64,000 nt of DNA from Desulfomonilia bacterium (GTDB lineage Bacteria; Desulfobacterota; Desulfomonilia; UBA1062). The notes below the pieces were generated by a model, which was given only the letters and a program-made list of their open reading frames with translations, was not told the DNA's origin and searched no databases. The stretch is from assembly GCA_036567785.1 (NCBI GenBank), contig DATCTV010000034.1:102468-166467 (forward strand), written 5' to 3'. This document shows, one piece after another, positions 34,168-58,164 of this stretch. The translations under genes were made by a program, and so were the position numbers. Within the stretch, counting starts at the first letter, position 1, and each line of letters opens with the position of its first letter.

Positions 34168-34206
34168 GACACCGGCGGTCTTGAATCTTTATCGGTTGCC
34201 GGTGTC
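34168..34206. terminator. Stem-loop between convergent lipoprotein genes (GACACCGGC-21nt-GCCGGTGTC)
   Basis: 9-bp perfect inverted repeat in the 40-nt convergent gap. It overlaps the stop codon of the minus-strand gene. Confidence 0.35.
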
Positions 34207-40800: not shown

Positions 40801-40953
40801 GGCGTCTGATATTACCGGGTCGTAAGACGGCACTGATGACAATATGTCCGAACTCATCCTCAAATGAGACTGGGTCCACAGGCTCATCAAAATAAGCCCT
40901 GCGATGGTAAAAATCAGAAGCCTAAGATTGATGTTGTATCCCCGGAATTTCAT
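37840..40953 (-). CDS. MMPL/RND-type lipid exporter fused to a C-terminal class I SAM-dependent methyltransferase
   Basis: Two 6-TM bundles each preceded by a large periplasmic loop (MMPL topology). The C-terminal ~240 aa carry SAM motif I VLDIGCGYG and the downstream MTase motifs. Confidence 0.7.
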   Translation of the reverse strand: MKFRGYNINLRLLIFTIAGLILMSLWTQSHLRMSSDILSSVPSYDPVISDAKKIFDRYRLPDKVAVDLCLEGVALPDKDLLASYALRLENEMKKSGLFEKIGIDDPGSALPRILNMVADNLPGSFSAQDLNERIFPLINKEAIRNSLNADIELLGGFEGIGQSDMISKDPLGLRFIILERLRNFLEVKGSLVYKGQIFSSDGRHCLVVAHTRNPGMDTQFSRRISELFNRISNEFESDALRNRTPKIKLNAIGSYRSAMDNEKTAKRDVIFAAIVSTLGIAFILITCFPRPYIGLLSFFPGAAGTTAAMFVLSIIRPEMSLLALGFGGAILSFTVDSGISFFLFLDRTSMTSGKETSHEIRSVELMAMFTTAGAFLALVFSGFRIMADVGMFAALGAVFTFVFVHTLQPRIFISMPPAKRSALLPVEKIAEFLSLKPGWTGFILAAVFGITMAALAKPVFNADLNRMNAVGPVTIKAEETFKSVWGDVFSRIYFLSEGDSIEGLRNISDRMSLFFKEQVGKKTLASSFTLSDIIPSSYLSSLNLQDWKDFWNKDRVKALKSEIIPASEEYGFNADAFEPFMELLENPVITGTDLTVGSYEFLGLFTEDPGKKYLLISTAMPGPDYKAQPVFDEIHSKNLGSMLDYGLFTQRLSGLVHGIFMKTLITAGSALALLLLFYYLDITLAFLTLLPVAFSLICTFGTFTLIGHPIDIPGLMLAVVVLGLGIVFSIYIVRMQQRYIDEKHPSMKTIRASVLMAAAAILTGFSVLALARHPLLSSAGLSATLGILYTYAGTCLLLPPLLKRVFRQIPFPAAKDIQPGSPEHIKLVMSRFRHLEVYARMFARFKMKFDPMFPKLAGFMKSTGTVLDIGCGYGVQGVWLKTLFPGMRICALDPDRERIRIAGRVLGDDDEVHVSTAQAFDSYPETIDTALMLDMIHYIPETDLKKILLEIKSRLAADGRLILRVTIPSEKKVPWERWLEILRNKVARNAIWLRSKEDISFMLQETGYKLVLSEATAQQREETWFVAEPVSGRDFLT

Positions 40954-41672
40954 GACATACTCATACGCTTTCTTGTCGCCTGCGGAAAAACAAGCCTCAT
41001 GACAATCAGGCGAGTAAAGGTTGCAGAGTTCCTCAGGAAATCCACAAAAGGCCTGAAGTGAGAAACCCTCTTTCCGTTTTCAGGGTAGACGACACTGACA
41101 GGAACCTCATAGACCGGTATTTTATGCCAGTTCGCCAATACAAGAATTTCCACCTCAAACTGAAACCTGCTGGCCCTGCTTTTAAGGCTCAATATTTCCT
41201 TTACAGGGTAAATCCTGAACCCGCTCTGTGTATCTGTCAGAACGGGCCCCCCTGAAAGTTTTACCCAGAAGTTTGAAAATTTCCTTCCGAATCTGCTTGT
41301 CCAGGGAATACTTTCATCATCGAACATGTTTTTTCTGGCGCCTATGACAACAGGCCGTGCCCCCTCTTGTATTGATTCCATCAATCCTACGGCGTCACCA
41401 GGCACATGCTGCCCGTCTGCATCTATCGTTACGGCAAAATCGGCAATTTTAGATGCCTCTTTCAGGCCCGAGCGTATAGCCTCACCTTTGCCGATATTTC
41501 TTCCATGCCTGATAACCGTTATATTGTCATACCGTGCTAAAACTTCTGTTATCCCGTCAGTCGATCCGTCATCAACGACTATGACCGGCAGACCGAGTTC
41601 AATGCATCCGTCAAGCACAGAGGCCAGGGTTGCGGCATGGTTGTATACGGGGATGACAAAAGAGAACTGCAT
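40950..41672 (-). CDS. Family 2 glycosyltransferase (polyprenyl-phosphate sugar transferase-like)
   Basis: FSFVIPVYN…VDDGSTDG…(DxD)…RNIGKG: GT2 / GT-A fold motifs, 240 aa. First gene of a seven-gene minus-strand operon. Confidence 0.8.
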   Translation of the reverse strand: MQFSFVIPVYNHAATLASVLDGCIELGLPVIVVDDGSTDGITEVLARYDNITVIRHGRNIGKGEAIRSGLKEASKIADFAVTIDADGQHVPGDAVGLMESIQEGARPVVIGARKNMFDDESIPWTSRFGRKFSNFWVKLSGGPVLTDTQSGFRIYPVKEILSLKSRASRFQFEVEILVLANWHKIPVYEVPVSVVYPENGKRVSHFRPFVDFLRNSATFTRLIVMRLVFPQATRKRMSMS

Positions 41673-41886
41673 CCATCGGGTGTAAGATAAACGGCAGTAT
41701 CATGTCAATGCTCATTAGCTCTTGTGGGACAACAATATCATTGTTCGCCTTATTAATTTTTCCTGCTTACTTTTTATATAAATTAATAATATAATATTAA
41801 TGTACAATTAATACCTTTTCAGCGATCCTGTTTTTTAGGTTCAGTAGTCAGGCCACAGTTTTTAATTTTATCTTTGAGGAGTGAAC

Positions 41887-43809
41887 ATGAAAAACCTGAA
41901 TTTGAAGATTTACACCCTGCCAGGTTGTTTGGTCGTATTGTTCCTTATTCTGCCGGGATGCAAATGGCAGGCCCCCGTCCTCAATGATCTTTCCGTAAAG
42001 GCAGTCAGTTCCAGGACAATAACCCTTGCACAGCCTGTGCTCATTAAAGCGGGCTATCCCGAGGCTTCGGTCAATGCCTTTATCGGGCCTTCCGGACAGA
42101 TATCAGTCGACGGGTCAGATGTCAGCGGTTCAGCCGAAGGGCCGGTGGATGTCTCAAAAGGTAATTACCAGTTTAAAGGCCTGAACCCAGGGTCAAGCTA
42201 TGATATCATTGTTGTAGCAAAGAATATTTCCGGCTGTTCAGTTAAAAGCCTTGCCGGCATCAAGCCTCATATCCCTCAGATCGATCCGGCCTCATATCAG
42301 AGCATAGGCACGGATGAAATGGGTTTGTTCCGATGGTATCTGGCTCTTGCCGACGATCCCATTTCCGATTTCAGCAAGATTCCGTCATATGATGACAAGC
42401 AGACCGAGGGTTCTTCATACAGGTATTCGCTGGCATTCATGACCTATTTTCTTATTCTTGAGCAGTACCATAAGCTTCCTGCATGCGCAGAGATCATCAA
42501 GCCGCGCATGGACCGGCTGATCCAGAAAATACTTGACAGGCAGGTCTGGACCTACTGGGCCAATACAAGCCAGGGCGTGGAACTTCTTGAGCCTAAGATG
42601 GACAGGCCATACCCTGAACAGCACGACCCCGTCGCAGACCAGAACATTATGTATTCCGGCCACGTGGGGATGATGATCGCCTCTTATGAAATGCTCTACC
42701 GCGACATGAAATGGAGCGAGCCCGGTTCGATCATCTTCAAGTGGAGCGACACCGAACAGTACGTCTATGACAACCACTCGCTGCAGAAGGTCATGTACGA
42801 CCAGATGGCAAACAACCCGTATCACGGAATCGCATGCGAGCCTAATGCGGTATTCCCGGAGTGCAACCAGCACCCGATCATTTCGTTCATGCTGTACGAC
42901 CATGTACACGGCACCAGTCTGGCAGAAGCCCGCAACCTGTTCCTGGACTTTTTCCTCAAACGCGGGATGATCAATCCTCTGACTCACGAGGTCTGCGTGA
43001 ACTACCTTGTTAAGCAGAATATAGTCGTCAGTCAGGAAAACCCCAATTTCGGGAATCTGGCTTCTCTTTATACGATTCCCCAGGTACTTGCCGGTAAGCT
43101 GATTCTGCATGCGGCAGCCGCCGACGGCTGGACGGGCACATTCATGCATGCCTGGCAACCGGACTTCATTGAGCGCCATTATCCGTACCAGAAAAAACTG
43201 CATGTTCTTGATCCTGACAGCATGACCGCGCATCTTGACGGAAAAAAGGAGCAGGCCACCAACCAGCTTGCAACACCGTTTTTCGCCATGCTGGCCGCCG
43301 AGGTGGGTGATACCGACACCAGAGACGGTCTCATTCAATGGTGCAAGGACTTCTACAAGCCGGTCTGGGAAAACGGGATGCTTCACTACCCGGCAAAAGA
43401 GCCTGTCAACATCAACACTTCGGGTGAGTTCACGCCGTACGGTAACGCAACCACTGGCGCACTGATAGCGGTCGCCATGGCAAATTCTAAAAATGGGGTC
43501 TGGTCTCTCGTCAACAGGCCTTTCACTGACAGGGAATTCAACGCCCCCAAAGTATCAGGGGTTGACTTCCCCAATGCCCTGCTAAAGCGCGCGATCTATG
43601 ACTTCGAGAAGGAGGCGCTCATAATCACTACAGATGGCGGAGCCATTAAAAGCGGCAATACGTCATTCAGCGTGACGCAGCTTGATCCTGCCAGGTCATG
43701 GAGACTCCTAATGGACGGTGTTTGTGTTGGAGAATATACAGGGGTCAGCTCCGTCTCAATATCCGTTGCACTTGATTCTCAGCACGATTTTGTACTGATA
43801 GCGGAATAG
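41887..43809 (+). CDS. Lipoprotein: FN3-like domain plus large domain resembling the linalool dehydratase/isomerase (LDI) family, paralog 1
   Basis: Lipobox LPGC. About 100-aa FN3-like module (…YQFKGLNPGSSYDIIVVAKN…). The following ~450-aa domain has NIMYSGH (Met-x3-His), GIACEPNAVFPEC (Cys-x8-Cys) and RYSLAF, which I recall as the LDI active-site layout. The ATG at 41887 has a GAGGAG RBS. Confidence 0.55.
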   Translation: MKNLNLKIYTLPGCLVVLFLILPGCKWQAPVLNDLSVKAVSSRTITLAQPVLIKAGYPEASVNAFIGPSGQISVDGSDVSGSAEGPVDVSKGNYQFKGLNPGSSYDIIVVAKNISGCSVKSLAGIKPHIPQIDPASYQSIGTDEMGLFRWYLALADDPISDFSKIPSYDDKQTEGSSYRYSLAFMTYFLILEQYHKLPACAEIIKPRMDRLIQKILDRQVWTYWANTSQGVELLEPKMDRPYPEQHDPVADQNIMYSGHVGMMIASYEMLYRDMKWSEPGSIIFKWSDTEQYVYDNHSLQKVMYDQMANNPYHGIACEPNAVFPECNQHPIISFMLYDHVHGTSLAEARNLFLDFFLKRGMINPLTHEVCVNYLVKQNIVVSQENPNFGNLASLYTIPQVLAGKLILHAAAADGWTGTFMHAWQPDFIERHYPYQKKLHVLDPDSMTAHLDGKKEQATNQLATPFFAMLAAEVGDTDTRDGLIQWCKDFYKPVWENGMLHYPAKEPVNINTSGEFTPYGNATTGALIAVAMANSKNGVWSLVNRPFTDREFNAPKVSGVDFPNALLKRAIYDFEKEALIITTDGGAIKSGNTSFSVTQLDPARSWRLLMDGVCVGEYTGVSSVSISVALDSQHDFVLIAE

Positions 43810-43834
43810 AGAACCTGACGGGAGTTGGCAAACT

Positions 43835-45775
43835 ATGAGAATATTTATGCATGTTGGGTATGCCAAAATGTCCGGACTGGCCATATGCCTTTTCATGCTA
43901 ATAATCCTTATGCCCGGATGCAAATCTAAGCCAGAGGTGGCACCGGTCCTCAACGACCTGAACCTCAAGGCATACAGTTCACGTACCATAACGATCAGTC
44001 AGCCGAATTTTGCAACACCGGGCTATCCTTCACCGGCTGTAGAGGCATATATCGGGGCGACCGGGGCGATAACCGCTGAAGGGTCATCTGTTTCGGGGGC
44101 ATCCGAGGGACCGGTCGATGTGTCCAAAGACGGCTACCAATTCATGGGCCTCGCAACCGGCGCTTCCTATGACATCATCGTAATTGCAAAGAACAAGGCC
44201 GGCTTCTCGATCAAAAACCTTACAGGAGTGGTTCCGGCTGTGCCCAATGTAGATCCTGCCTCTTACCTTCAGATCGGGAATGACGAAATGGGTATGTTCA
44301 GATGGTATCTCACGATGTGTGACGATCCCCTGGACGACTTCTCCAAGATAGAATCCTGGGACAAGGACCAGTACTTCATCTCATCATACAGATACAGCAT
44401 TGCATTCATAACCTATATGCTCGCACTCGAGCAGTACCACAAGCTCAATGCCTGGCGCGAGTACATAAAACCCCGTATGGACAGGCTCATACAGAAGATG
44501 CTCATGAAGCAGGTATGGCAGTACTGGGCCATGAGAAGCAAAGGGGTCAGTTTTCTGGAGCCGTTATTGAATACGCCGTATCCAGAGGAACGCGATCCGG
44601 TAGGCCACAAGAACATCATGTACTCGGCCCACCTTGGTCAGATGATCGGGCTTTATGAGATGCTCTACAGGGACCTGAAATGGGACGAGCCCGGTTCCAT
44701 CGTGTTCAAGTGGAGCGAGACAGAGCAGTATGTCTATGACAATAACTCCCTGCAGAAGGTCATGTACGACCAGATGATGTACAACCAGCACCAGAGCATC
44801 GAATGCGAGCCTAATGCCGTCTTTTCCGAGTGTAACGAACACCCCATACTCTCCTTCATGCTGTACGACCATGTACACGGGACGAACCTTGCCGAGGCAC
44901 GCAAACGATTTCTGGACTTTTTCCTGGAGAAGAATTTCATCAACCCGATAACACACGAGACCGCCGTCCTCTATCTGGTCAAGCAGAAGACGATGATAAC
45001 CCAGGAGTTCTGCAGCTTCGGAAACGGCCTTTCCCTGGTATCCGTACCCATGGCCTGGCTGGGGCTGATAAATGCCAATGCCTCGATATCGAACGGATGG
45101 AACGGGGCCTTCATGCACGGCTGGGAACCTGCCCTTATTGAACGACATTATCCTTACCAGAAAAAGAGGCATGTGGTGGAGCCGGACAGCAATACCGCGC
45201 ACCTGAAGATAGAGATGATAACAGATCAGATAGCCACGCCGCTCTTCGCCATGCTGGCAGGTGAAGTGGGAGACACTGCCACAAGGGACAAACTCATAGC
45301 CTGGTGCAAGGACTTCTACAAACCGACATGGGACGACGGTATGCTGCATTACCCTGTCGGAAAAGACACATACGTCAACCTTCTAAGAATGGCATGGACG
45401 CCATGGCCCCAAGCCTTCACCGGCGTTCTTGTGGCATTCACGGCTGCCAATCCACCGAGCGGCATCTGGAAACTCCACAACAAGCCGTTCATCCAGCGAG
45501 ATTTCGAATCTCCGCAGGTGACGGAAGTCGACTTCCCCAATGTCCTGCTTACAAGGGCCGTCTACGACTTTGAAAAGGAGGCTCTTGTTATGTCCACAGT
45601 AGGCGGCGCACTCCATAGCGGCAGCACATCTTTCAATGTAACTCAGCTGGACAATAACAGGAAATGGAAGCTCTTCCTGGATGGGATTCTTCAGAATGAA
45701 TATATAGGGGTCCGTTCTGTTTCAATCAATGTTCCCCTTGATGCGCAGCATGATATTGTATTGGTTGCGGAATAG
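43835..45775 (+). CDS. Lipoprotein, FN3-like plus LDI-like domain, paralog 2
   Basis: Lipobox MPGC, same architecture. About 60% aa identity to paralog 1 and about 85% to paralog 3 by eye. Same Met-x3-His and Cys-x8-Cys motifs. Confidence 0.55.
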   Translation: MRIFMHVGYAKMSGLAICLFMLIILMPGCKSKPEVAPVLNDLNLKAYSSRTITISQPNFATPGYPSPAVEAYIGATGAITAEGSSVSGASEGPVDVSKDGYQFMGLATGASYDIIVIAKNKAGFSIKNLTGVVPAVPNVDPASYLQIGNDEMGMFRWYLTMCDDPLDDFSKIESWDKDQYFISSYRYSIAFITYMLALEQYHKLNAWREYIKPRMDRLIQKMLMKQVWQYWAMRSKGVSFLEPLLNTPYPEERDPVGHKNIMYSAHLGQMIGLYEMLYRDLKWDEPGSIVFKWSETEQYVYDNNSLQKVMYDQMMYNQHQSIECEPNAVFSECNEHPILSFMLYDHVHGTNLAEARKRFLDFFLEKNFINPITHETAVLYLVKQKTMITQEFCSFGNGLSLVSVPMAWLGLINANASISNGWNGAFMHGWEPALIERHYPYQKKRHVVEPDSNTAHLKIEMITDQIATPLFAMLAGEVGDTATRDKLIAWCKDFYKPTWDDGMLHYPVGKDTYVNLLRMAWTPWPQAFTGVLVAFTAANPPSGIWKLHNKPFIQRDFESPQVTEVDFPNVLLTRAVYDFEKEALVMSTVGGALHSGSTSFNVTQLDNNRKWKLFLDGILQNEYIGVRSVSINVPLDAQHDIVLVAE

Positions 45776-45829
45776 GACACACAAAAAATTATAGACAGAC
45801 GATTTCAGTCCAGACTTAGGAGGAAGGGT

Positions 45830-47752
45830 ATGCAAAAGAATTCCATGAAAACATTCAGCACCGTGATATGCCTTTTCCTGGCTGTTTTAATGATGCCGGG
45901 ATGCAAAAAGGCGGTTGCACCAGAGCTCAACGACCTGAGCCTCAAGACTTGCAGCGCGCGCTCAGCGACAATTGATAAGCCGAGTTTTGCCACACCGGGC
46001 GACCCGGAACCGATAGTGGAAGCTTACATCGGGGCAACCGGAACCATCTCAGTCGACGGATTATCTGTGTCAGGTGCTTTACAGGGGCCTGTTGACGTAT
46101 CCAAGGATGGCTGCCAGTTTACGGATCTTGTCAAAGGCTCTTCCTATGACATCATCGTCATTGCAAAGAACAAGGCCGGTTCCTCGATTAAAAGCCTTAC
46201 CGGAGTAGTTCCGGCAGTACCCACGGTGGATCCTGCCTCTTATCTCGAGATCGGGAATGACGAGATGGGCATGTTTAGATGGTACCTCTCAATGTGCGAC
46301 GATCCCCTGGATGATTTTTCGAAAATCGAATCCTGGGATCAGGATCAATTCTACATTTCATCATACCGCTACAGCATAGCGTTTACTACATACATGCTGG
46401 CTCTTCAGCAATATCACAAGCTCCCTGCCTGGCGCGAATACATAAAGCCCCGCATGGACAGGCTCATACAGAAGATGCTCCTGAAGCAGGTGTGGCAGTA
46501 CTGGGCCGTGCGCAGCAAGGGCGTTGATTTCATCGAACCTCTCCTGAACACGCCATATCCCGAAGAACACGATCCTGTAGGCCACAAGAACATCATGTAC
46601 TCAGGCCACCTGGGTCAGATGATAGGTCTCTACGAAATGCTTTACAGGGACATGAAATGGGACATGCCGGGTTCGATAGTCTTCAAATGGAGCGATACAG
46701 AAGAATATGTCTACAACAACTATTCCCTCCAGAAGGTGATGTACGACCAGATGATGTACAACCAGCACCAGAGCATCGAATGCGAGCCAAACGCTGTCTT
46801 CTCCGAGTGTAACGAACACCCGATACTCTCCTTCATGCTTTATGACCATGTTCACGGTACTAAGCTGGCAGAAGCCCGCAACAATTTCCTGGATTTCTTC
46901 CTTAAGAAAATGTTCGTAGATCCTCTTACGCATGAGACGGCCTTCTTCTATCTGGTCAAGCAGAAGACTATGATTACCCAGCAGTTCTGCAGCCTGGGCA
47001 ACGGACTTTCTCTTGTATCGGTTCCTCTTGCCTGGCTCGGGCTCGTTAATATAAATGCTTCGATATCGAACGGATGGAACGGCGTGTTCATGCACGGCTG
47101 GCAGCCGGACATAATAGAGCGCCATTACCCATATCAGAAAAAAAGGCATGTAGTTGAACCAGACAGCACCAGCGCCCACCTGAAGGTTGAGATGGTGACC
47201 GACCAGCTCGCCACACCCTTCTTCGCCATGCTGGCAGGTGAAGTAGGAGACACTGCCACGAGGGACAAACTCATAGCCTGGTGCAAAGACTTCTACAAGC
47301 CGACCCTGGATGACGACGGGATGCTGCATTACCCTGTGGGTCCGGACACCTATGTGAACCTTTCCAGGACGAAATGGTCAGAATTGCCGCAGGCCTTTAC
47401 GGGCGTGCTGATAACCTTCGCGGCTGTTAACCCGCCGAACGGAGTCTGGAAGCTTCACAACAGGCCGTTTACCCAACGCGACTTTGAGTCTCCGCAGATT
47501 ACGGGCCTGGACTACCCCAACATACTGCTGAAACGGGCGATATACGACTTTGAAAAGGAGGCCCTCATTGTATCTACCATGCCCGGAAAAGGCACTGGCA
47601 GCACGTCGATAAACATCACCCAGCTTGACCCTTCAAGGACATGGGACGTAATTGTTGATGGTGAGAATTTCTGTACTGTCAGCGGGACAAGTTCCACATC
47701 AGTTGATGTATCCATGGACGCAGGACATGACATTGTCCTGATAGCGGAATAA
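45830..47752 (+). CDS. Lipoprotein, FN3-like plus LDI-like domain, paralog 3
   Basis: Strong AGGAGG RBS, lipobox MPGC. Colinear with paralog 2. Confidence 0.55.
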   Translation: MQKNSMKTFSTVICLFLAVLMMPGCKKAVAPELNDLSLKTCSARSATIDKPSFATPGDPEPIVEAYIGATGTISVDGLSVSGALQGPVDVSKDGCQFTDLVKGSSYDIIVIAKNKAGSSIKSLTGVVPAVPTVDPASYLEIGNDEMGMFRWYLSMCDDPLDDFSKIESWDQDQFYISSYRYSIAFTTYMLALQQYHKLPAWREYIKPRMDRLIQKMLLKQVWQYWAVRSKGVDFIEPLLNTPYPEEHDPVGHKNIMYSGHLGQMIGLYEMLYRDMKWDMPGSIVFKWSDTEEYVYNNYSLQKVMYDQMMYNQHQSIECEPNAVFSECNEHPILSFMLYDHVHGTKLAEARNNFLDFFLKKMFVDPLTHETAFFYLVKQKTMITQQFCSLGNGLSLVSVPLAWLGLVNINASISNGWNGVFMHGWQPDIIERHYPYQKKRHVVEPDSTSAHLKVEMVTDQLATPFFAMLAGEVGDTATRDKLIAWCKDFYKPTLDDDGMLHYPVGPDTYVNLSRTKWSELPQAFTGVLITFAAVNPPNGVWKLHNRPFTQRDFESPQITGLDYPNILLKRAIYDFEKEALIVSTMPGKGTGSTSINITQLDPSRTWDVIVDGENFCTVSGTSSTSVDVSMDAGHDIVLIAE

Positions 47753-47762
47753 GGAGGTAAAA

Positions 47763-48185
47763 ATGAAGAAGTCTCAAATCTGGGCACTTGTAATTATTCT
47801 GCTGGGGGTGGTCGTCATACTTATCCCATGGCAGCTTTTCCCTGTCTGCGGAGTGGGTCGCTATGCACCGCCTGCCGGGGCTATGCCCCGGATGCACGGC
47901 TGTGACGGCACCCTTAAAGCCGCTACTTATCTGGGTATTATAACAATTTGCGCCGGGCTGCTGCCGCTATTTTTCAAACAGCACCTTGCCGGACTTATCT
48001 CGGCAGTTTCAACAGCAGTGATCGGCGTCCTTCTCATACTCTTCCCGACAGTCATAACAGGAGTCTGCAAGGTGCCGACAATGCCATGTGTCTTCGGGAC
48101 AAAACCTGCCCTCATAATGGCGGGTATAGTATTGATACTGGTGGCTGGCTCTTTCGGCATCATGCTGATGAAAAAGAAAAAGTAA
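47763..48185 (+). CDS. Small 4-TM integral membrane protein with conserved cysteines
   Basis: 140 aa with four hydrophobic helices and six Cys (CGVG, HGCDG, CAG, CKVPTMPC). 10 nt after paralog 3. Its stop overlaps the start of the permease gene (TAATG). Confidence 0.45.
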   Translation: MKKSQIWALVIILLGVVVILIPWQLFPVCGVGRYAPPAGAMPRMHGCDGTLKAATYLGIITICAGLLPLFFKQHLAGLISAVSTAVIGVLLILFPTVITGVCKVPTMPCVFGTKPALIMAGIVLILVAGSFGIMLMKKKK

Positions 48186-49393
48186 TGACAACGGCAAGCC
48201 TTGCCCTGGGCAATCTCATCAAACGCCCATGGCGAACCGCCATACTGGCGGTTTGCATCGCATGTCTTGTGGGAATGCAGATGGCGGCCACGATCATTGA
48301 ACGGGCCAGCAGACAGGGTCTCAAACTGGGTCTTGAGCGCCTCGGGGCCGACCTGGTGGCAGTCCCCCGTCAGCTTGACAGCGACCTGGTGCAGGCCTAC
48401 ATGACGGGAAAAGCAGCGGTCTTCTACATGCCGGCCACTATCGAACAGCGTATCCGTAATTTTGATTTCGTCAGACAGACATCCCCTCAGCTTTACATAG
48501 AATCTCTCTCAAATGCGACCTGCTGTTCAACATGGAATGTTTTCCTGATCGGATTTGACCCCAAGACCGACTTTACTGTCCGGCCCTGGCTGAGCAGACA
48601 CCGCGACATACAACTCGGCCCTTCAGACATCCTGGTCGGCGCTGCGCTACAGTCTCCGCCCGGAAAGACCTACAAATTTTATGGTCAGATATTCAATGTC
48701 GCGGGGTCGCTGGATGCAAGCGGTATGGGACTTGACTATTCCGTCTTCATCCCGATCGAGGGAGTCAAACGTATGATAGCCGAATCAGGGATAAAGGCAG
48801 TTAAACGGCTCGATATCGCCCCTGATCAGACATCTGCAATCATGATCAAGCTGAAGCCGGAGATATTCGGGGGGCTCCCTGCATGGAAGGCGGCCTATGA
48901 AATAGAGAGCCGGGTGCCGGAAGTCACTATCATCCAGCCCGCAGACATCACGGTAAAGGTTCAGAAAAATCTGGCCGCGACACTTAAGACCTTGACAATG
49001 GCCAGCTTCGCCATATGGCCCATGACAGTCCTTCTCGTCGGACTCGTGTTCATGATGGCAGTCAGGGAACGCCAGCGCGAGATAGGTCTCATGAGGGCAA
49101 TGGGCAGTACACGTCTGTTTATATTCCGCATGATACAACTTGAAGCATTAATGATCTCGGTTCTGGGAGCAGCTCTCGGACTGATCGTTTCAACGGGAAT
49201 AGTGATCGGTTTCGAGCGTATGATTGCACTTAGACTTGAAATCCCCTTTGCGGTGCCGGGAGTCTTTGAAATTCTTTTCATAGCAGGCCTTTCCTTTGGA
49301 CTCGCAGTTGTCACGGGAGTTCTGGCCGCAATGATCCCGGCACTTAAAGTAAGCGCCATGGAGCCTTACGAGGCCATCAGGAGGGCGGGATGA
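48185..49393 (+). CDS. ABC transporter permease, FtsX/MacB-like (type VII) with large periplasmic domain
   Basis: N-terminal TM, ~220-aa periplasmic domain, then three C-terminal TMs (FtsX-domain pattern …REIGLMRAMGST…). Start reassigned to the ATG at 48185. The track start at 47948 is out of context and overlaps the previous gene. Confidence 0.7.
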   Translation: MTTASLALGNLIKRPWRTAILAVCIACLVGMQMAATIIERASRQGLKLGLERLGADLVAVPRQLDSDLVQAYMTGKAAVFYMPATIEQRIRNFDFVRQTSPQLYIESLSNATCCSTWNVFLIGFDPKTDFTVRPWLSRHRDIQLGPSDILVGAALQSPPGKTYKFYGQIFNVAGSLDASGMGLDYSVFIPIEGVKRMIAESGIKAVKRLDIAPDQTSAIMIKLKPEIFGGLPAWKAAYEIESRVPEVTIIQPADITVKVQKNLAATLKTLTMASFAIWPMTVLLVGLVFMMAVRERQREIGLMRAMGSTRLFIFRMIQLEALMISVLGAALGLIVSTGIVIGFERMIALRLEIPFAVPGVFEILFIAGLSFGLAVVTGVLAAMIPALKVSAMEPYEAIRRAG

Positions 49394-50076
49394 TAATCCT
49401 TAACGGGGTCTCAAAACTCTATGGTTCCGGAGGCGGTGAAATCCGTGCCGTGGATGACGTTTCTCTTGAGGTTAAAGAAGGCGAGTTCCTTGTTCTCATC
49501 GGCCATTCCGGAAGCGGTAAAACCACACTCCTTAACCTCATAGCCGGTATGACGCGTCCGGACACGGGACGAATAGAAATAGCCGGACGGGATATTCTCG
49601 GCATGAGTGATGCCGAAACGGCACATATGAGGGCTTCGGTCATCGGTTTTGTCTTTCAGTTCCAGAGCATGATTTCAACGCTCAATGCACTGGATAATGT
49701 CAGGCTCCCGTCGCTCTTCCGCAGACACAGATCAGAGAAGAAAGAGGCATTCGAAATGCTTGACCGGGTCGGTCTGGCCGGCAGGGAACATGCATATGCA
49801 CACGAGCTTTCACTTGGTCAGCAGCGCCGTGTCGGTATTGCACGGGCCCTGTTCAGCAGGCCTTCGCTGCTGCTCTGCGATGAACCGACAGGAGACCTCG
49901 ACCCTGAAACAGAACTGGCGATCATGGGTTTGATCTCAGGGGCGAACAGGGACGGTGCTACCATTGTCATGGCCACGCATAACCATGACCTCTGCTCTTA
50001 TGCAAACCGTATCCTGTGCATGGACCACGGCCGGATTTCCTCGGTTGAGCCCGGGACAGAACATGCGATTAAATAA
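49390..50076 (+). CDS. ABC transporter ATP-binding protein (LolD/MacB-type)
   Basis: Walker A GHSGSGKTT, signature LSLGQQRRV, Walker B LLLCDEPT, 228 aa. ATGA overlap with the permease gene. Confidence 0.9.
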   Translation: MIILNGVSKLYGSGGGEIRAVDDVSLEVKEGEFLVLIGHSGSGKTTLLNLIAGMTRPDTGRIEIAGRDILGMSDAETAHMRASVIGFVFQFQSMISTLNALDNVRLPSLFRRHRSEKKEAFEMLDRVGLAGREHAYAHELSLGQQRRVGIARALFSRPSLLLCDEPTGDLDPETELAIMGLISGANRDGATIVMATHNHDLCSYANRILCMDHGRISSVEPGTEHAIK

Positions 50077-50227
50077 CAGGTAATCCCTCTTCTGTTTCAG
50101 AAAAACCGCCGGGTACAAAATGATTGAAGAATTATCAGGTACTGCCGATAGATATTTTAGCGCACTTAATTAATAAATATTAAAAACCGGGCGATTCATG
50201 CTCTATTCGCGCAAACAAGGAGCCCTT

Positions 50228-50524
50228 ATGAAAATTAACAAAACGACGGCCGGAGTCAGCATGACCATCGAACTCGAAGGCAGGCTGGACAGCGTAACGG
50301 CGCCGCAGCTCGAAGCCGAATTGAAATGCTCTCTTGACGGCATAACGGAACTGGCGCTTGATTTCTCGGCGCTCGATTATCTTTCATCAGCAGGACTGCG
50401 TGTAATTCTTGCCGCACAGAAGGTCATGAACAAAAAAGGGTGCATGCAGATCAGAAATGTCAACAAAACGATCATGAATGTGTTTGAGATCACGGGGTTT
50501 ACTGATCTCCTGACAATCACCTAG
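50228..50524 (+). CDS. STAS-domain anti-sigma-factor antagonist (SpoIIAA/RsbV-like)
   Basis: 98 aa with the conserved phosphorylatable Ser in the DFSALDYLSSAGLRVIL context. AAGGAG RBS upstream of the ATG at 50228. Confidence 0.8.
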   Translation: MKINKTTAGVSMTIELEGRLDSVTAPQLEAELKCSLDGITELALDFSALDYLSSAGLRVILAAQKVMNKKGCMQIRNVNKTIMNVFEITGFTDLLTIT

Positions 50525-50649
50525 CTGAAGTATCTCGAAAAATGCGCCTGGCAGTATCCGGGCTTATTATAAAACAGATCGTTCCTCTGGACAAATGTTG
50601 AACACAACATGACGCCAATCCTAAAACATCATCTTCAATCAACAGCCTG

Positions 50650-52584
50650 TTAAGTCCCTTCTTTTCGGTATTTCAAGGCAAGCATGGTAATATCATCCGA
50701 TTGTGATGCGCCATTGGTGTGCAGTGTTACAACCGAGCGTATGTAATGGATCATTTCTGTAACATCCTCTTTAGGTGCCTGTTTAAGCGCATTTAAAAGG
50801 CGCTCCTCGCCGTATAGTTCCTGTTCCATGTTTTGCGCTTCCGTCACTCCGTCGGTATAGAGAAAAAGTGTGTCTCCGGCTTTAAGGGTAAGCCGTTCGG
50901 CTTTATAGACAATACCCGGCATGGGGCCCAGCACAAAACCGGGTTTCAGGGTAAGGTATCTTATCCCCTGAGAATCCATGATTACCGGGGCATTATGCCC
51001 GGCATTGGCAAACCGTACGACTCCTGTAACAGTATCAAGAATGGCGCAGAATACTGTAGCGAACATGGTGCTGTCATTGTCCGAGGCAAGAATGTTATTC
51101 ACGCATGAAAGTATCTGATCGGGCTCGCCAAGCCGCTGACCCTCGGATTTAAGGAGGGTCTTTGCCACCATCATGTAAAGGGCCGCCGGCACACCTTTAT
51201 CCGAAACGTCTGCAATTAGGAAGCAGAGATTGGTATCGTCGATGAAAAAGAAATCGTAGAAGTCTCCACCTACTTCCTTGGCGGGATCCATCGAGGCGTA
51301 AATGTCAAATTCGGGACGATCCGGAAATGCCGGGAACAGACGTGGAAGCAGACTGGCCTGTATTTCGGTTGCCATCCTGAGTTCGCTCTGTATACGTTCC
51401 TTTGCCGCAGTGGTTTCGGTCAGGTTCTTTATGTATTCCTTGAGTGACGTTTTCATTACCTGAAAGTCATGCGTGAGCACGCCGACTTCATCCTTAGATC
51501 TGACCGCAGGCAATTCCACATCGAAGTTACCCGAAGCTATATCATCCGTCGCAGCCGCCAGCAGACGGAGAGGTTTTATGATAGCGCTGGCAACATAGAC
51601 GACAGTCGCAACCAGAAGCAGGAGCCCTGCAAAACCCATGGCCGCCATGGTCATGCTCAGACACCTGACATTTTCAAGAAGCTCCGCCTCTGGAAATACA
51701 ACGGCAAGCGTCCAGCCTGTAGAACGGACCGGCGCGTAATACATCCAGCTCCTGAATCCCATAAGGCTGTTGTAGAGAATGAAACCAGACTCTCCGCTGA
51801 CCATCTTTTTGCCGAGTTCGCGCAGTGAAGCATCATTGCGCGCCTCGGCTATGCTGAAGAATGTCTCATTCATGACGGCATCCTTCAAGGGGTGTGCGAG
51901 CAGCATCCCGTTTCGTGAAAGAAGGGCTGCATACCCTGACTTCAGTATCTTGACGGATGAGATCATTTGCGTAAGCGAGTCCAGCGAGACATCCGCCGTC
52001 ACTATTCCTTTGAGTATTCTTGTCCCGTTCTTTTCACCGTAAAATGGAACCGAACATGTTGACATGACGGTATTGCCTGCCCCCTCGTCGAAATACGGCT
52101 CGCTCCATTCGGTTTTGCCCAGTTCCCTCGGGATCTGGTACCAGTCCCAGTATAGATACGGTACGTATTGATATGAGTCTTCCAGGCGGCTGAAGGCAAT
52201 TTTTCCTTTATCCCGGTAGAAGTAGGGAGCAAAAAGACGGATTGAGGGGCTGAAGGCATAGGGCTCAAATGCCACTGTTGAACCGTATATATCCGGATTC
52301 TTTTCAACTGTGGTTCTGATAAGCGAAAGGAGTTCCTTCTCCGTGTACTGACCGGACTCAAGTGAATTAGCCACACCTTCGGTCACTTTGGCAACCCCGA
52401 TAAGCTCGGTTTCAACATGATAGACTAAAGACATGGCAAGGTTGCGCGCATTGGCTTCAAGCTCGTTCTCTAGAACGACGCGGGAGCGGTAATAGTTGTA
52501 GCCGAGAGTTACGGCAAAGATGAGCGTGCTGCATAGCGTGATAACAAGGACAAGCTTGGTGACGATACTATTTTTCCCCGGCAT
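50650..52584 (-). CDS. Sensor PP2C phosphatase: TM, periplasmic Cache-like domain, TM, HAMP, SpoIIE/RsbU PP2C domain
   Basis: Two TMs bracketing a ~280-aa periplasmic domain, a HAMP region (…ATDDIASGNFDVELP…), and C-terminal PP2C motifs (GDFYDF, ADVSDKG, DGVTEA). Confidence 0.8.
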   Translation of the reverse strand: MPGKNSIVTKLVLVITLCSTLIFAVTLGYNYYRSRVVLENELEANARNLAMSLVYHVETELIGVAKVTEGVANSLESGQYTEKELLSLIRTTVEKNPDIYGSTVAFEPYAFSPSIRLFAPYFYRDKGKIAFSRLEDSYQYVPYLYWDWYQIPRELGKTEWSEPYFDEGAGNTVMSTCSVPFYGEKNGTRILKGIVTADVSLDSLTQMISSVKILKSGYAALLSRNGMLLAHPLKDAVMNETFFSIAEARNDASLRELGKKMVSGESGFILYNSLMGFRSWMYYAPVRSTGWTLAVVFPEAELLENVRCLSMTMAAMGFAGLLLLVATVVYVASAIIKPLRLLAAATDDIASGNFDVELPAVRSKDEVGVLTHDFQVMKTSLKEYIKNLTETTAAKERIQSELRMATEIQASLLPRLFPAFPDRPEFDIYASMDPAKEVGGDFYDFFFIDDTNLCFLIADVSDKGVPAALYMMVAKTLLKSEGQRLGEPDQILSCVNNILASDNDSTMFATVFCAILDTVTGVVRFANAGHNAPVIMDSQGIRYLTLKPGFVLGPMPGIVYKAERLTLKAGDTLFLYTDGVTEAQNMEQELYGEERLLNALKQAPKEDVTEMIHYIRSVVTLHTNGASQSDDITMLALKYRKEGT

Positions 52585-53590
52585 CTGACCTCCGGCTGAA
52601 AGCGTCGTAGTAGGGGCAACTCCGGATCAGGCCTGCCTTGAGAAGTGAACTGCAAACCGCCTCATAATCTTTTTCTTTGAGAATGCCAGGAGCACCCAGG
52701 GATGTGCCTGGCATGATCATATCCCGCATCCGGTCAAGCATCCATTTCTGATGAATCCGGTTGGCGGGTATTTTTGCCTCGCGCATGCGTCTGATGACTA
52801 TGTCCAGAGCCTCTTCGGGATGCTCAAAGGCATAGCGCCAGCCATCCAGAGATGCTTTTACAAAGGCCCCGGCCAGTGCAGGGTCATTATGCAGGGTTTT
52901 TTCCATCGCATATATGCCGTCCTCCGGGAAATTCATCCCCAGCTCATTCATGGAAAAAACGTTCAGTTCTTCAGGATCGAGTCCGGAATTGATGATAGTG
53001 TGGTACTCGTTGTACCACATTGCGGATGTGACATCGATCCCGCCTCGAAGGAAGAGGTTCACGGTGGCGTTCTGGGGCACCTCACGTACTTTGATGCCGT
53101 ATTTAATAAACAGGGCATGCGGAGGTATGGACAAGTCTCCTCCCCACAGTCCCACCTTTTTGCCGTTCATATCAGAGACAGTCCGAATGCCGCTTGATTT
53201 TCTTGAAATCAGCATCATGGAAGATCTCTGTATGATCTGAGCCAGATTGACAAGATCTGTACCGGCAGACCGCTGTTGAATTGCAGTCGTAAGCCACAGA
53301 ATAGCGAAGTCGGCAGAACCGTCCTTCAATGCCCTTACAGGGTCATGACCAGGACCTGCATTGAGAATTTTAAGATCTATGCCATAACGGGCATATATCC
53401 CTTTGTCCAACGCGACATAATATCCGGCAAACTGCGCCTGTGGAGTCCAGAGCGGCATGAGGGTAGCCTTTTTCAGAACGGGTTCGGAGACGGCCCATGT
53501 CGAAAGGGGCAACATCAGAAACAACAGCAATGCAAAAATCAATTTCAATAAATTTTGTTCAGTATATTTTTTTTTGTGCATCATAATCAT
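52568..53590 (-). CDS. Periplasmic substrate-binding protein, NMT1/SsuA/TauA-like
   Basis: Signal peptide followed by a type-2 periplasmic-binding fold typical of nitrate/sulfonate/bicarbonate ABC SBPs. Overlaps the downstream phosphatase gene by 17 nt. Confidence 0.65.
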   Translation of the reverse strand: MIMMHKKKYTEQNLLKLIFALLLFLMLPLSTWAVSEPVLKKATLMPLWTPQAQFAGYYVALDKGIYARYGIDLKILNAGPGHDPVRALKDGSADFAILWLTTAIQQRSAGTDLVNLAQIIQRSSMMLISRKSSGIRTVSDMNGKKVGLWGGDLSIPPHALFIKYGIKVREVPQNATVNLFLRGGIDVTSAMWYNEYHTIINSGLDPEELNVFSMNELGMNFPEDGIYAMEKTLHNDPALAGAFVKASLDGWRYAFEHPEEALDIVIRRMREAKIPANRIHQKWMLDRMRDMIMPGTSLGAPGILKEKDYEAVCSSLLKAGLIRSCPYYDAFSRRSDAGEK

Positions 53591-55936: not shown

Positions 55937-56018
55937 ACAATTGACTTTTTAGATATATGCATATTTACTGATTTATCAGTGCGCTATACTCTCTTGAAAT
56001 ACTGAAACGGAGGTTACA

Positions 56019-57482: not shown

Positions 57483-57502
57483 ATAGATAAGGGAGGCATG
57501 TC

Positions 57503-58144: not shown

Positions 58145-58164
58145 CAAAAAGTCCGGGAGAAGAC

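What the first reader, a model, noticed from the sequence alone, without database searches (positions are those of the whole stretch)
41887..50076. Operon of three tandem LDI-like FN3 lipoproteins, a Cys-rich membrane protein and a MacB/FtsX-type ABC transporter
Three consecutive genes encode ~640-aa lipoproteins with the same three-part architecture:
- a lipobox signal peptide
- a ~100-aa FN3-like beta domain
- a ~450-aa domain carrying NIMYSGH (Met-x3-His), C-E-P-N-A-V-F-x-E-C (Cys-x8-Cys), RYSxAF, and a conserved HVHGT

From memory, these motifs and spacings correspond to the catalytic residues of linalool dehydratase/isomerase from Castellaniella defragrans (Met125/His129, Cys171/Cys180, the YSIAF helix). 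That enzyme is a cofactor-free periplasmic (alpha/alpha)6-barrel hydratase/isomerase of anaerobic monoterpene metabolism. Outside that organism the family is essentially uncharacterised.

The operon continues with a 140-aa 4-TM protein with six Cys, then a MacB-like permease with a large periplasmic domain, then an ABC ATPase. Stops and starts overlap throughout.

An LDI-like catalytic domain fused to FN3, triplicated, and hard-wired to a type VII ABC mechanotransmission system is an architecture I do not recognise as described. It could be a periplasmic or outer-membrane hydratase/isomerase system for alkenols, terpenoids or unsaturated lipids, with the ABC system sorting, exporting or activating the lipoproteins.
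Basis: partly seen in the sequence, partly recalled or inferred. Interest (0 to 1): 0.85.

Follow-up and report, generated by a model that had tools for sequence, protein, structure and literature searches.

The report
LDI-like periplasmic enzymes with ABC partner
Three tandem lipoprotein genes in an uncultured Desulfomonilia bacterium are clear relatives of linalool dehydratase/isomerase, a rare cofactor-free enzyme that adds water to alkenes, and they sit in a conserved operon with a MacB-type ABC transporter and a small four-cysteine membrane protein, a combination not described so far.

Summary

Downstream lie DUF4418 (five Cys, four invariant), a MacB_PCD+FtsX permease and an ABC ATPase.

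LDI-like genes sit next to DUF4418-FtsX-ABC in about 14 independent loci, in different gene orders. Approached from the DUF4418 side, the link holds in one branch of a wider DUF4418-FtsX-ABC module family. Flanking genes differ between loci, so the cassette is self-contained.

The LDI family is large (about 1150 clusters at 50% identity), unnamed by its sources, and found here almost only in MAGs and metagenome contigs from sediment and sludge.

Function is inferred: periplasmic hydration or isomerisation of a hydrophobic alkene/alkenol, with the ABC module handling substrate or product at the membrane. This is a new variant of a known kind and a good experimental lead, but the chemistry is untested.

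The parts
41673..41880 (.). AT-rich 208-nt divergent intergenic region between the GT2 operon (- strand) and the LDI-like operon (+ strand). It is the presumed promoter region. A GAGGA ribosome-binding site lies 7 nt before the ATG at 41887.
   Evidence: Sequence read. The consensus promoter scan gave nothing above chance, and no Rfam match was found.
41887..43809 (+). LDI-like lipoprotein 1. The ORF opens at GTG 41881; the likely start is ATG 41887. In GTG numbering: signal peptide with lipobox L-P-G-C (Cys27), FN3-like domain residues 39-127, (alpha/alpha)6 barrel about 130-553, C-terminal beta-sandwich 557-641. Catalytic-type residues are Y182, M257, H261, C319 and C328.
43835..45775 (+). 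LDI-like lipoprotein 2 (lipobox M-P-G-C). From its fifth residue on it appears identical, by inspection of the alignment, to a protein NCBI lists as hypothetical in a Desulfomonilia MAG.
   Evidence: Pfam Ldi E 6.7e-73. P0017 reads the same in the alignment. Source name.
45830..47752 (+). LDI-like lipoprotein 3 (lipobox M-P-G-C). It is 76% identical to paralog 2 overall and 84% within the barrel.
   Evidence: Pfam Ldi E 1.6e-71. Pairwise identities. Tree position.
47763..48185 (+). DUF4418 protein of 140 aa: a four-helix membrane bundle. Cys29, His45, Cys47, Cys102, Met107 and Cys109 are invariant and lie at the predicted periplasmic ends of the helices.
   Evidence: Pfam PF14387 E 3e-21. Alignments A3 and A4. 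AlphaFold model pLDDT 81.5. No significant match to a solved structure.
48185..49393 (+). Type VII (MacB/FtsX-type) ABC permease of 402 aa, with a MacB-like periplasmic core domain (about residues 21-225) and a C-terminal FtsX domain.
   Evidence: Pfam FtsX E 3e-16 and MacB_PCD E 3.8e-07. Distant PDB relatives are Spr0695, MacB and YtrF. It scores far below the NCBIfam cut-offs for LolC/E, MacB and FtsX.
49390..50076 (+). ABC ATPase of 228 aa of the LolD/FtsE/MacB-NBD type. Walker A (GHSGSGKTT), signature (LSLGQQ), Walker B (LLLCDEP) and H-loop are intact.
   Evidence: Pfam ABC_tran E 1.9e-34. NCBIfam FtsE and LolD about 185 bits, below their cut-offs. Motifs read from the translation.

Best explanation
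What is shown: this is a six-gene operon from a Desulfomonilia MAG. It encodes three paralogous, membrane-anchored periplasmic members of the linalool dehydratase/isomerase (LDI) family, followed by a stand-alone MacB/FtsX-type ABC system whose extra subunit is a DUF4418 tetraspan protein. The LDI-type (alpha/alpha)6 barrel is kept, as are the residues that do acid/base catalysis in LDI (Tyr66, Met125, His129 and the two reduced cysteines Cys171/Cys180).

What is inferred: the three lipoproteins are cofactor-free hydratases/isomerases. They add water to, or shift the hydroxyl of, a hydrophobic alkene or allylic alcohol (a terpenoid or other unsaturated lipid-like compound) in the periplasm of a strict anaerobe. 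The FN3 module acts as a stalk from the lipid anchor. The paralogs may differ in substrate, or may form mixed oligomers, because LDI's active site lies between subunits.

The DUF4418-FtsX-ABC module uses ATP-driven movements of its periplasmic domain to handle the membrane-partitioning substrate or product. It would extract the compound from the outer leaflet and pass it to the enzymes, or expel it, which limits toxicity. This is comparable to how other type VII ABC systems act on periplasmic or outer-leaflet substrates.
For: Family membership:
- Pfam Ldi scores 242-271 bits; a family profile against PDB LDI gives E 9e-35.
- The catalytic residues are aligned and invariant or nearly so in 70 homologs.

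Periplasmic location:
- Signal peptides are present throughout the family, with a lipobox Cys in the FN3 subclade.
- LDI itself is a Sec-exported periplasmic enzyme (PMC6600392).

Functional link to the ABC module:
- LDI-like genes lie next to DUF4418-FtsX-ABC in the window, L001, L002, L006, L008, L011, L014, L037, L048, L049, L052, L053, L062 and L088, in at least three gene orders.
- Flanking genes differ between loci.
- In the window, tight spacing and overlapping codons indicate co-translation.

Hydrophobic substrate:
- LDI substrates are membrane-toxic terpenes, and transport mutants of Thauera fail on linalool (PMC4847356).
- A FadL/Toluene_X channel and ceramidases lie upstream in L001.
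- An old-yellow-enzyme homolog and an acyl-CoA ligase lie beside L048.
- CrtI-type flavoproteins and an Fe-alcohol dehydrogenase lie beside singleton paralogs.
Against: - No activity has been measured for any member of this clade.
- The window holds no atu/liu or geoA/geoB-type terpene catabolic genes, and no metabolic partner is conserved around the cassette.
- LDI's capping disulfide is not conserved: the position aligned to its Cys102 is not Cys.
- LDI's N-terminal segment, which carries the neighbour-subunit residues Asp39/Tyr45 (positions recalled from memory), does not align. Active-site completion and oligomeric state are therefore unknown.
- The same DUF4418-FtsX-ABC module type sits elsewhere beside unrelated secreted proteins: multicopper-oxidase-like giants, a penicillin amidase and a copper chaperone. 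Its role may be generic to extracytoplasmic proteins, or metal-related, rather than substrate handling.
- Identity between the barrel and LDI is only 21-27%.
Confidence: 0.45

Rival explanations
1. FtsEX-like control. The ABC system moves no substrate. It uses ATP-driven mechanotransmission through its periplasmic domain to switch the LDI-like proteins on, or to assemble them, as FtsEX does with EnvC, PcsB or RipC.
For: - The permease has a MacB-type periplasmic core domain, and no membrane-fusion or outer-membrane partner is encoded.
- Related DUF4418-FtsX-ABC modules lie next to other extracytoplasmic enzymes: penicillin amidase and large PKD/multicopper-oxidase-like proteins. This fits a partnership with proteins rather than with one small molecule.
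- The ATPase scores best against FtsE in NCBIfam.
Against: - Permease and ATPase are far below the FtsX/FtsE cut-offs.
- No coiled-coil adaptor of the EnvC/PcsB kind is present.
- C. defragrans LDI is active after ordinary Sec export in E. coli, with no such partner supplied (PMC6600392).
Confidence: 0.15
2. Redox or metal service. DUF4418, with four invariant periplasm-facing Cys plus His and Met, works with the ABC system to keep the catalytic cysteines of the LDI-like enzymes reduced, or to deliver or remove a thiophilic metal such as copper.
For: - Cys29, His45, Cys47, Cys102, Met107 and Cys109 are invariant at the periplasmic helix ends.
- LDI needs Cys170/179 reduced and is oxygen-sensitive (PMC6600392).
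- Distant DUF4418 modules lie beside multicopper-oxidase-like proteins and a PpoB2 copper chaperone.
- One DUF4418 gene without FtsX lies near a thioredoxin gene.
Against: - DUF4418 has no structural similarity to DsbB, VKOR, DsbD or CcdA; the best Foldseek E is 0.24, to generic tetraspans.
- The multicopper-oxidase hits are weak (22-25 bits).
- LDI binds no metal (PMC6600392).
- Extracytoplasmic Cys pairs are most often structural disulfides.
Confidence: 0.12
3. Dedicated Lol-like sorter. The ABC system extracts the three lipoproteins from the inner membrane for delivery to the outer membrane.
For: - The three proteins carry lipoboxes.
- The ATPase resembles LolD (185 bits) and the permease weakly resembles LolC/E.
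- No fusion protein is encoded, as with LolCDE.
Against: - Homologs in L002, L008, L011, L014 and L048 keep the same DUF4418-FtsX-ABC neighbour but have ordinary signal peptides without a lipobox Cys.
- NCBIfam LolC/E scores are 17.5-22.4 bits against cut-offs of 362-540.
Confidence: 0.05
4. The barrel has a different chemistry. The proteins keep the LDI fold but act on something else, for example hydration of unsaturated sugar or vinyl-ether bonds as GH88/GH105 do, or they only bind a ligand.
For: - A GH5 gene lies between LDI-like copies in L002.
- Sugar-related genes neighbour some loci.
- Identity to LDI is only 21-27%.
Against: - The specific LDI catalytic set (Tyr, Met, His, two Cys) is conserved across the family.
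Confidence: 0.1
5. Co-location without cooperation. The ABC system is a general efflux or resistance pump that merely travels with the LDI-like genes.
For: - DUF4418-FtsX-ABC modules exist widely without LDI (B. longum in PMC7701253).
- Several LDI-like paralogs in the same Desulfomonilia genome (L004, L005, L007) have no ABC neighbour.
Against: - Adjacency persists through gene-order rearrangement, with sequence identity falling to about 50% and in changing flanks.
- Start and stop codons are coupled in the window.
Confidence: 0.08

Closest known systems
Linalool dehydratase/isomerase (LDI) of Castellaniella defragrans 65Phen (PDB 5G1U, 5HSS, 5I3T; Pfam PF18566)
   Same: - Tyr66, Met125, His129, Cys171 and Cys180 equivalents are conserved.
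- Sec-type export to the periplasm.
- Found in an anaerobe.
   Different: - Only 21-27% identical.
- Carries a lipid anchor, an N-terminal FN3-like module and a C-terminal beta-sandwich, none of which LDI has.
- LDI's capping disulfide is absent.
- The N-terminal segment that completes LDI's active site from the neighbouring subunit does not align.
- Triplicated in tandem.
- Coupled to an ABC system rather than to geraniol-oxidation genes.
Linalool isomerase (Lis) of Thauera linaloolentis 47Lol
   Same: - It is the only other characterised relative of LDI (PMC6600392, PMC4847356).
- It is similar in overall length (about 640 aa, from my own recollection, not tested here).
   Different: - lis lies with the atu/geo terpene-catabolic genes (PMC4847356); no such genes are in this window.
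- I recall Lis as membrane-anchored by N-terminal helices rather than by a lipobox plus FN3 module; this was not tested here.
Type VII ABC systems (MacB, LolCDE, FtsEX, HrtBA, YtrEF)
   Same: - Four-helix FtsX-type permease with a periplasmic core domain between the first two helices, plus a separate ATPase.
- No fusion protein, as in LolCDE and FtsEX.
- By established knowledge, these systems act on periplasmic or outer-leaflet substrates or partners by mechanotransmission.
   Different: - Far below every NCBIfam equivalog cut-off.
- Distant from all solved members (best E 1.9e-08 over the FtsX domain only).
- Has an obligatory DUF4418 tetraspan gene directly upstream in nearly all of 74 related loci, which none of the named systems has.
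GH88/GH105 unsaturated glycuronyl hydrolases
   Same: - By established knowledge, they also work by hydrating a C=C bond inside an (alpha/alpha)6 barrel.
   Different: - No sequence similarity.
- Different catalytic residues (Asp-based).
- Sugar substrates.

Membership tests
LDI family (Pfam PF18566) | Significant match to the family HMM above the curated cut-off | tested here: met
   271.3, 246.4 and 241.8 bits against a cut-off of 26.1, covering both halves of the profile.
LDI family (Pfam PF18566) | (alpha/alpha)6 barrel superposable on an LDI crystal structure | tested here: met
   - AlphaFold pLDDT 95, pTM 0.92.
- Foldseek's top 27 hits are all LDI, with TM 0.73-0.81 relative to the target.
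LDI family (Pfam PF18566) | Catalytic residues Cys171, Cys180, His129, Met125 and Tyr66 (5G1U numbering) | tested here: met
   They align to C319, C328, H261, M257 and Y182. C319, C328, H261 and Y182 are invariant and M257 is at least 90% conserved in 70 sequences.
LDI family (Pfam PF18566) | Intrasubunit disulfide capping the active site (Cys48/49-Cys101/102) | tested here: not met
   The residue aligned to LDI Cys102 (KMKCKRVW against KILDRQVW) is not Cys. The only family-invariant Cys are C319 and C328. The role of the disulfide is taken from PMC6600392.
LDI family (Pfam PF18566) | Active site completed by the neighbouring subunit of a homopentamer (Asp39', Tyr45') | tested here: inconclusive
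   The N-terminal 61 residues of LDI are not aligned by either single-sequence or profile search. A nearly invariant D163-F164 resembles LDI's I-D-F by eye only.
LDI family (Pfam PF18566) | Periplasmic location through an N-terminal signal peptide | tested here: met
   Hydrophobic signal peptides are present in all three proteins and in the homologs examined. The AlphaFold model shows an N-terminal helix at residues 9-26.
LDI family (Pfam PF18566) | Myrcene hydration or linalool-geraniol isomerisation activity | not testable with these tools
   This needs an anoxic enzyme assay.
Type VII ABC transporter (MacB/FtsX superfamily) | FtsX four-helix domain with a MacB-type periplasmic core domain, plus a cognate ATPase with intact motifs | tested here: met
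   FtsX 60 bits (cut-off 25.5), MacB_PCD 31 bits (cut-off 27), ABC_tran 119.7 bits. Walker A, Walker B, signature and H-loop were read from the translation.
Tripartite MacAB-TolC-type efflux pump | Adjacent membrane-fusion (HlyD-family) adaptor gene | tested here: not met
   No such gene lies in or beside the operon, nor in the syntenic loci L001 and L002.
LolCDE / FtsEX equivalogs | Score above the NCBIfam equivalog cut-off | tested here: not met
   - lolCE 22.4 bits against 362.
- FtsX 21.7 against 255.
- MacB 23.6 against 966.
- FtsE 187 against 265.
- LolD 185 against 308.
All.
DUF4418 (Pfam PF14387) | HMM match above the cut-off; about 120-140 aa with four membrane helices | tested here: met
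   76.2 bits against a cut-off of 27. The model has four helices.
Fibronectin type III domain | Match to Pfam fn3 above the cut-off | tested here: inconclusive
   The score is 13.8-19 bits against a cut-off of 25. Support comes from 51% identity, E 2e-29, to repeats of an FN3-annotated protein, weak PDB fibronectin hits at E 1e-3, and a predicted all-beta domain at residues 39-127.
Bacterial lipoprotein | Lipobox [LVI][ASTVI][GAS]C at the end of the signal peptide | tested here: inconclusive
   The sequences are L-P-G-C, M-P-G-C and M-P-G-C. Gly at -1 and the Cys fit, and the Cys is conserved in the FN3 subclade, where one member has the canonical I-A-G-C. Pro at -2 is atypical. No dedicated predictor was available.

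The most novel reading that the evidence does not exclude
The cassette would be a new kind of ABC-coupled periplasmic lipid-modifying machine. In this reading, a DUF4418-containing type VII ABC transporter physically docks LDI-like hydratases, possibly as mixed oligomers of the paralogs. It feeds them membrane-embedded isoprenoid or alkene substrates by mechanotransmission, so ATP hydrolysis in the cytoplasm would drive cofactor-free water addition to hydrophobic C=C bonds outside the cytoplasm. DUF4418 would then be a new class of ABC accessory subunit shared with other extracytoplasmic enzyme partners.
Probability: 0.2. Interest if true: 0.85.

Novelty: new variant of a known kind. Interest (0 to 1): 0.62.

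Why it matters
LDI is valued in biocatalysis because it adds water to unactivated alkenes, and makes alkenes from alcohols, without any cofactor. The literature held here treats it as nearly unique, with Thauera Lis as the only notable relative (PMC6600392).

This locus shows otherwise:
- The catalytic core lives on in a large family: about 1150 clusters at 50% identity, 281 of them at E<=1e-30.
- Nearly all genome hits are uncultured MAGs across many phyla.
- The family has two distinct conserved gene contexts. One is an ABC/DUF4418 cassette. The other is an operon with ATP-dependent radical-enzyme components.

This gives concrete candidates for new alkene/alkenol hydratases. It gives DUF4418 its first functional context, as a regular partner of a MacB-type ABC subfamily. 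It also offers a testable case of an ABC system tied to periplasmic enzymes other than cell-wall hydrolases.

Tried and rejected
- NCBIfam gave no hit for the three LDI-like proteins.
- Promoter and terminator scans of 41500-50700 were no better than shuffled sequence. The only plausible terminator lies after the STAS gene at 50546. Transcription-unit limits therefore rest on spacing alone.
- Rfam and tRNA scans of the window were empty.
- I tested whether DUF4418 is a DsbB/VKOR-like thiol oxidoreductase. Sequence search of the PDB found nothing. Foldseek found only generic tetraspans at E of at least 0.24. The idea is not supported but not excluded.
- The Lol-like lipoprotein-sorter idea was rejected because non-lipoprotein homologs keep the same ABC neighbour.
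- I looked for a conserved metabolic partner around the cassette. The window has no atu/liu/geo genes. Flanks of L006, L008, L011 and L014 are unrelated to one another.
- The upstream divergent operon (GT2, MMPL-methyltransferase and others) and the downstream STAS/SpoIIE genes are not conserved with the cassette in L001, so I left them out of the system.
- I tried to map LDI Asp39/Tyr45. Neither phmmer nor a family profile aligns the LDI N-terminus.
- The AlphaFold-database fold library was not available.
- Model coordinates are not exposed, so distances between the conserved Cys and His could not be measured.

Full report

Yes. Six same-strand ORFs fill 41881-50076. Three are paralogs of 642, 646 and 640 aa, 60-76% identical to one another. 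The others are a 140-aa membrane protein, a 402-aa permease starting at the ATG at 48185, and a 228-aa ATPase.

Gene junctions are 25, 54 and 10 nt, then a 1-nt overlap (TAATG) and a 4-nt overlap (ATGA). AGGAGG sites precede genes 3 and 4, and GAGGA precedes the ATG at 41887.

The consensus promoter and terminator scans add nothing beyond chance. The window has no Rfam or tRNA features.

Window protein 2 reads the same as P0017, apart from the start call, in the alignment. The DUF4418 protein is 100% identical to P0121. Both come from an NCBI MAG labelled Desulfomonilia bacterium, on a contig of 392,564 bp. The source is therefore an uncultured Desulfomonilia bacterium (phylum Desulfobacterota by my own knowledge; not looked up here).

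**2. What the three proteins are**

- All three hit Pfam Ldi (PF18566) at E 1.8e-80, 6.7e-73 and 1.6e-71, against a cut-off of 26.1 bits.
- By sequence alone they find the C. defragrans LDI crystal structures at about 1e-19. A 70-sequence family profile finds them at 9e-35.
- An AlphaFold model built on that alignment is very confident: pLDDT 95, pTM 0.92.
- Its top 27 Foldseek hits in the PDB are all LDI (E about 2e-17, target-normalised TM 0.73-0.81).

The pairwise alignment places LDI Tyr66, Met125, His129, Cys171 and Cys180 (5G1U numbering) on Y182, M257, H261, C319 and C328. In 70 homologs spanning 40-88% identity, Y182, H261, C319 and C328 are invariant and M257 is at least 90% conserved.

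Two LDI features are not kept or cannot be judged:
- The disulfide that caps LDI's active site (PMC6600392) has no counterpart. The residue aligned to Cys102 is not Cys.
- The LDI N-terminal segment, which supplies Asp39'/Tyr45' from the neighbouring subunit, does not align. Those residue numbers are from my own recollection of the structure papers.

**3. Architecture**

The model shows four parts:
- A signal-peptide helix (residues 9-26) ending in L-P-G-C.
- An all-beta domain (39-127).
- The barrel (about 130-553).
- A seven-strand beta-sandwich (557-641).

The N-terminal beta domain scores below Pfam's fn3 cut-off. It is 51% identical (E 2e-29) to a unit repeated eight times in an FN3-annotated 928-aa protein. 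It is therefore a mobile FN3-like module.

The C-terminal sandwich has no Pfam match. It is conserved throughout the family and absent from the 372-aa LDI.

The FN3 module and the lipobox Cys occur only in the roughly 640-aa subclade. Most relatives are 510-600 aa with ordinary signal peptides.

**4. The rest of the operon**

*DUF4418.* The 140-aa protein is DUF4418 (E 3e-21). It has five Cys, not six. Four Cys (29, 47, 102, 109) plus His45 and Met107 are invariant. They lie at the ends of four predicted helices on the side opposite the Lys-rich termini, which is presumably the periplasmic face. It has no significant sequence or fold match among solved structures.

*Permease.* It has MacB_PCD and FtsX domains. 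It is only distantly related to Spr0695, MacB and YtrF, and is far below the NCBIfam cut-offs for LolC/E, MacB and FtsX.

*ATPase.* It has intact motifs and resembles FtsE/LolD, again below their cut-offs.

No membrane-fusion protein gene is present. This is a stand-alone type VII ABC system with an extra tetraspan subunit.

**5. Is the gene link real?**

*From the LDI side.* A scan of one genome per species found 45 loci. I added contigs found by exact protein look-up. LDI-like genes then lie next to DUF4418-FtsX-ABC in L001/L003, L002, L006, L008, L011, L014, L037 and L048.

*From the DUF4418 side.* A metagenome scan gave 74 loci.
- Nearly every locus with enough flank has the order DUF4418-FtsX-ABC.
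- In the branch whose DUF4418 is at least about 43% identical to the window's, an LDI-like gene is adjacent (after the ATPase, or before DUF4418 in L049) wherever enough flank remains: L048, L049, L052, L053/L054, L062, L085 and L088.

*Gene order.* It differs between loci:
- LDI copies first in the FN3 subclade.
- LDI last in the short forms.
- In L037 the LDI-like gene directly precedes FtsX. No DUF4418 gene is seen, but the LDI-like gene runs to the contig end.

*Flanks.* The flanking genes are unrelated between loci.

*Tree.* A neighbour-joining tree puts all ABC-linked copies in one of the two main clades. That clade also holds unlinked paralogs, including three singletons in one Desulfomonilia genome.

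The link is therefore conserved and probably ancestral to that clade, but it is not a property of the whole family. Conversely, the DUF4418-FtsX-ABC module is older and wider than its LDI partnership:
- More distant modules carry a second FtsX gene and sit beside very large PKD or weakly multicopper-oxidase-like proteins, a PpoB2 copper chaperone, or a penicillin-amidase lipoprotein.
- In Bifidobacterium longum, a DUF4418 gene and the adjacent ABC permease gene are co-regulated (PMC7701253).

**6. How it most likely works**

*Shown:* family membership, fold, conserved catalytic residues, export signals and conserved synteny.

*Inferred:* the lipoproteins are cofactor-free periplasmic hydratases/isomerases acting on a hydrophobic alkene or allylic alcohol. 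The ABC module handles that membrane-partitioning compound, delivering it to the enzymes or expelling it.

Supporting hints are circumstantial:
- Terpene toxicity, and transport mutants in Thauera that fail on linalool (PMC4847356).
- A FadL-type channel and ceramidases upstream in L001.
- An old-yellow-enzyme homolog and an acyl-CoA ligase beside L048.
- CrtI-type flavoproteins and an Fe-alcohol dehydrogenase beside singleton paralogs.

Against a catabolic role, the window has no atu/liu/geo genes, and no metabolic partner is conserved.

Because the ABC module also partners with other secreted enzymes elsewhere, two rivals stay open: an FtsEX-like activating role, and a thiol or metal service role for the Cys4-His-Met site. 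A Lol-like sorter is unlikely, because non-lipoprotein homologs keep the same partner.

**7. Comparison with what is known, and novelty**

These proteins meet the sequence, fold, catalytic-residue and localisation criteria of the LDI family. They differ from LDI in domain architecture, lipid anchoring, loss of the capping disulfide, tandem triplication and genomic partner.

The literature held here describes LDI as nearly unique, with Thauera Lis as the only notable relative (PMC6600392). Searches for DUF4418 or for LDI homologs returned nothing on this cassette.

An exhaustive profile search finds about 1150 clusters at 50% identity, 281 of them at E<=1e-30. Wherever a source gave the listed homologs a name, it was 'hypothetical protein'. 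Nearly all the genome hits are uncultured MAGs, including Desulfomonilia, Myxococcota, Bacteroidales, Ignavibacteria, Victivallales, Elusimicrobia, Acidobacteria, Spirochaetota and Negativicutes.

I rate this a new variant of a known kind: a known enzyme family in an undescribed architecture and operon.

**8. Verdict**

The function is a reasoned inference, not a result. Interest is moderately high, as a lead for new cofactor-free alkene hydratases and for the first functional context of DUF4418. It is held back by the lack of any substrate evidence.

Noticed in passing
L017, L018, L021, L024, L031, L035, L040, L042 and others (e.g. L035:1003-11689): The second main clade of LDI-like proteins is about 40% identical to the window's and occurs in MAGs labelled Bacteroidales, Ignavibacteria, Geobacter, Syntrophorhabdaceae, Elusimicrobia and Verrucomicrobiota. 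It sits in a different conserved operon:
- an unannotated ~270-aa protein with an N-terminal hydrophobic segment, upstream
- a secreted ~440-aa protein with no Pfam hit, directly downstream
- one or two pairs of HGD-D (2-hydroxyacyl-CoA dehydratase / benzoyl-CoA reductase-type) subunits
- a BcrAD/HgdC-type activator ATPase
- a CooC/MinD-like ATPase
- a CdhC-like protein
- a membrane protein
This looks like an undescribed anaerobic pathway that joins a periplasmic LDI-like step to ATP-dependent radical chemistry.
   Followed up: partly
L061:10290-12938, L082:3593-7777, L089:10343-11176, L094:2363-7441: DUF4418-FtsX-ABC modules more distant from the window's, often with a second FtsX gene, lie beside other extracytoplasmic proteins. 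These are 1400-1700-aa PKD proteins with weak multicopper-oxidase hits, a PpoB2 copper chaperone, and a penicillin-amidase lipoprotein. With the invariant Cys4-His-Met face of DUF4418, this raises a possible metal or protein-partner role.
   Followed up: partly
window 34189-41672 (- strand): A divergently transcribed operon lies upstream. It encodes a GT2 glycosyltransferase, a 1037-aa MMPL-type exporter fused to a SAM methyltransferase, an LpxL-like acyltransferase, a polysaccharide deacetylase, a FabG-like reductase, a LolA-like protein and a 217-aa unknown. From memory it resembles the tailoring and export half of aryl-polyene-type lipid clusters. It is not conserved next to the LDI cassette in L001.
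   Followed up: partly
window 50198-53590: A STAS-domain protein, a dCache-HAMP-SpoIIE (RsbU-like) phosphatase and an NMT1/THI5-like binding protein follow the operon. Genes of matching lengths and order follow the cassette in L006, but not in L001. This is a partner-switching sensor module of unknown target.
   Followed up: no
L004:7274-9758 and L007:12053-13297: Singleton LDI-like paralogs occur in another Desulfomonilia genome. One is preceded by two flavin amine-oxidase/CrtI-type oxidoreductases. Another is followed by an iron-type alcohol dehydrogenase. These hint at isoprenoid or alcohol chemistry.
   Followed up: no
L001:3379-9555: Upstream of the orthologous cassette lie a FadL/Toluene_X outer-membrane channel and two neutral/alkaline ceramidase-family genes.
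   Followed up: no
P0092 (928 aa; not in window): The FN3-like module of the window lipoproteins occurs eight times in tandem in this protein, at 38-53% identity. It is therefore a shuffled repeat unit in these bacteria.
   Followed up: no
window 42415-43386, 44564-45349, 46601-47329 (- strand): Long antisense ORFs of 242-323 aa lie inside each LDI-like gene. They recur because the paralogs are similar and are most likely not genes.
   Followed up: no
window 54779-59511: This stretch holds a DUF362 ferredoxin-domain protein, an MttB-family methyltransferase, a corrinoid-binding protein and an MFS transporter, followed by a GntR regulator on the opposite strand. It is a likely methylated-amine demethylation cluster.
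   Followed up: no
window 5152-6630 (-) and 61716-63512 (+): ORFs of 492 aa and 598 aa have no Pfam match at E<=1e-5.
   Followed up: no
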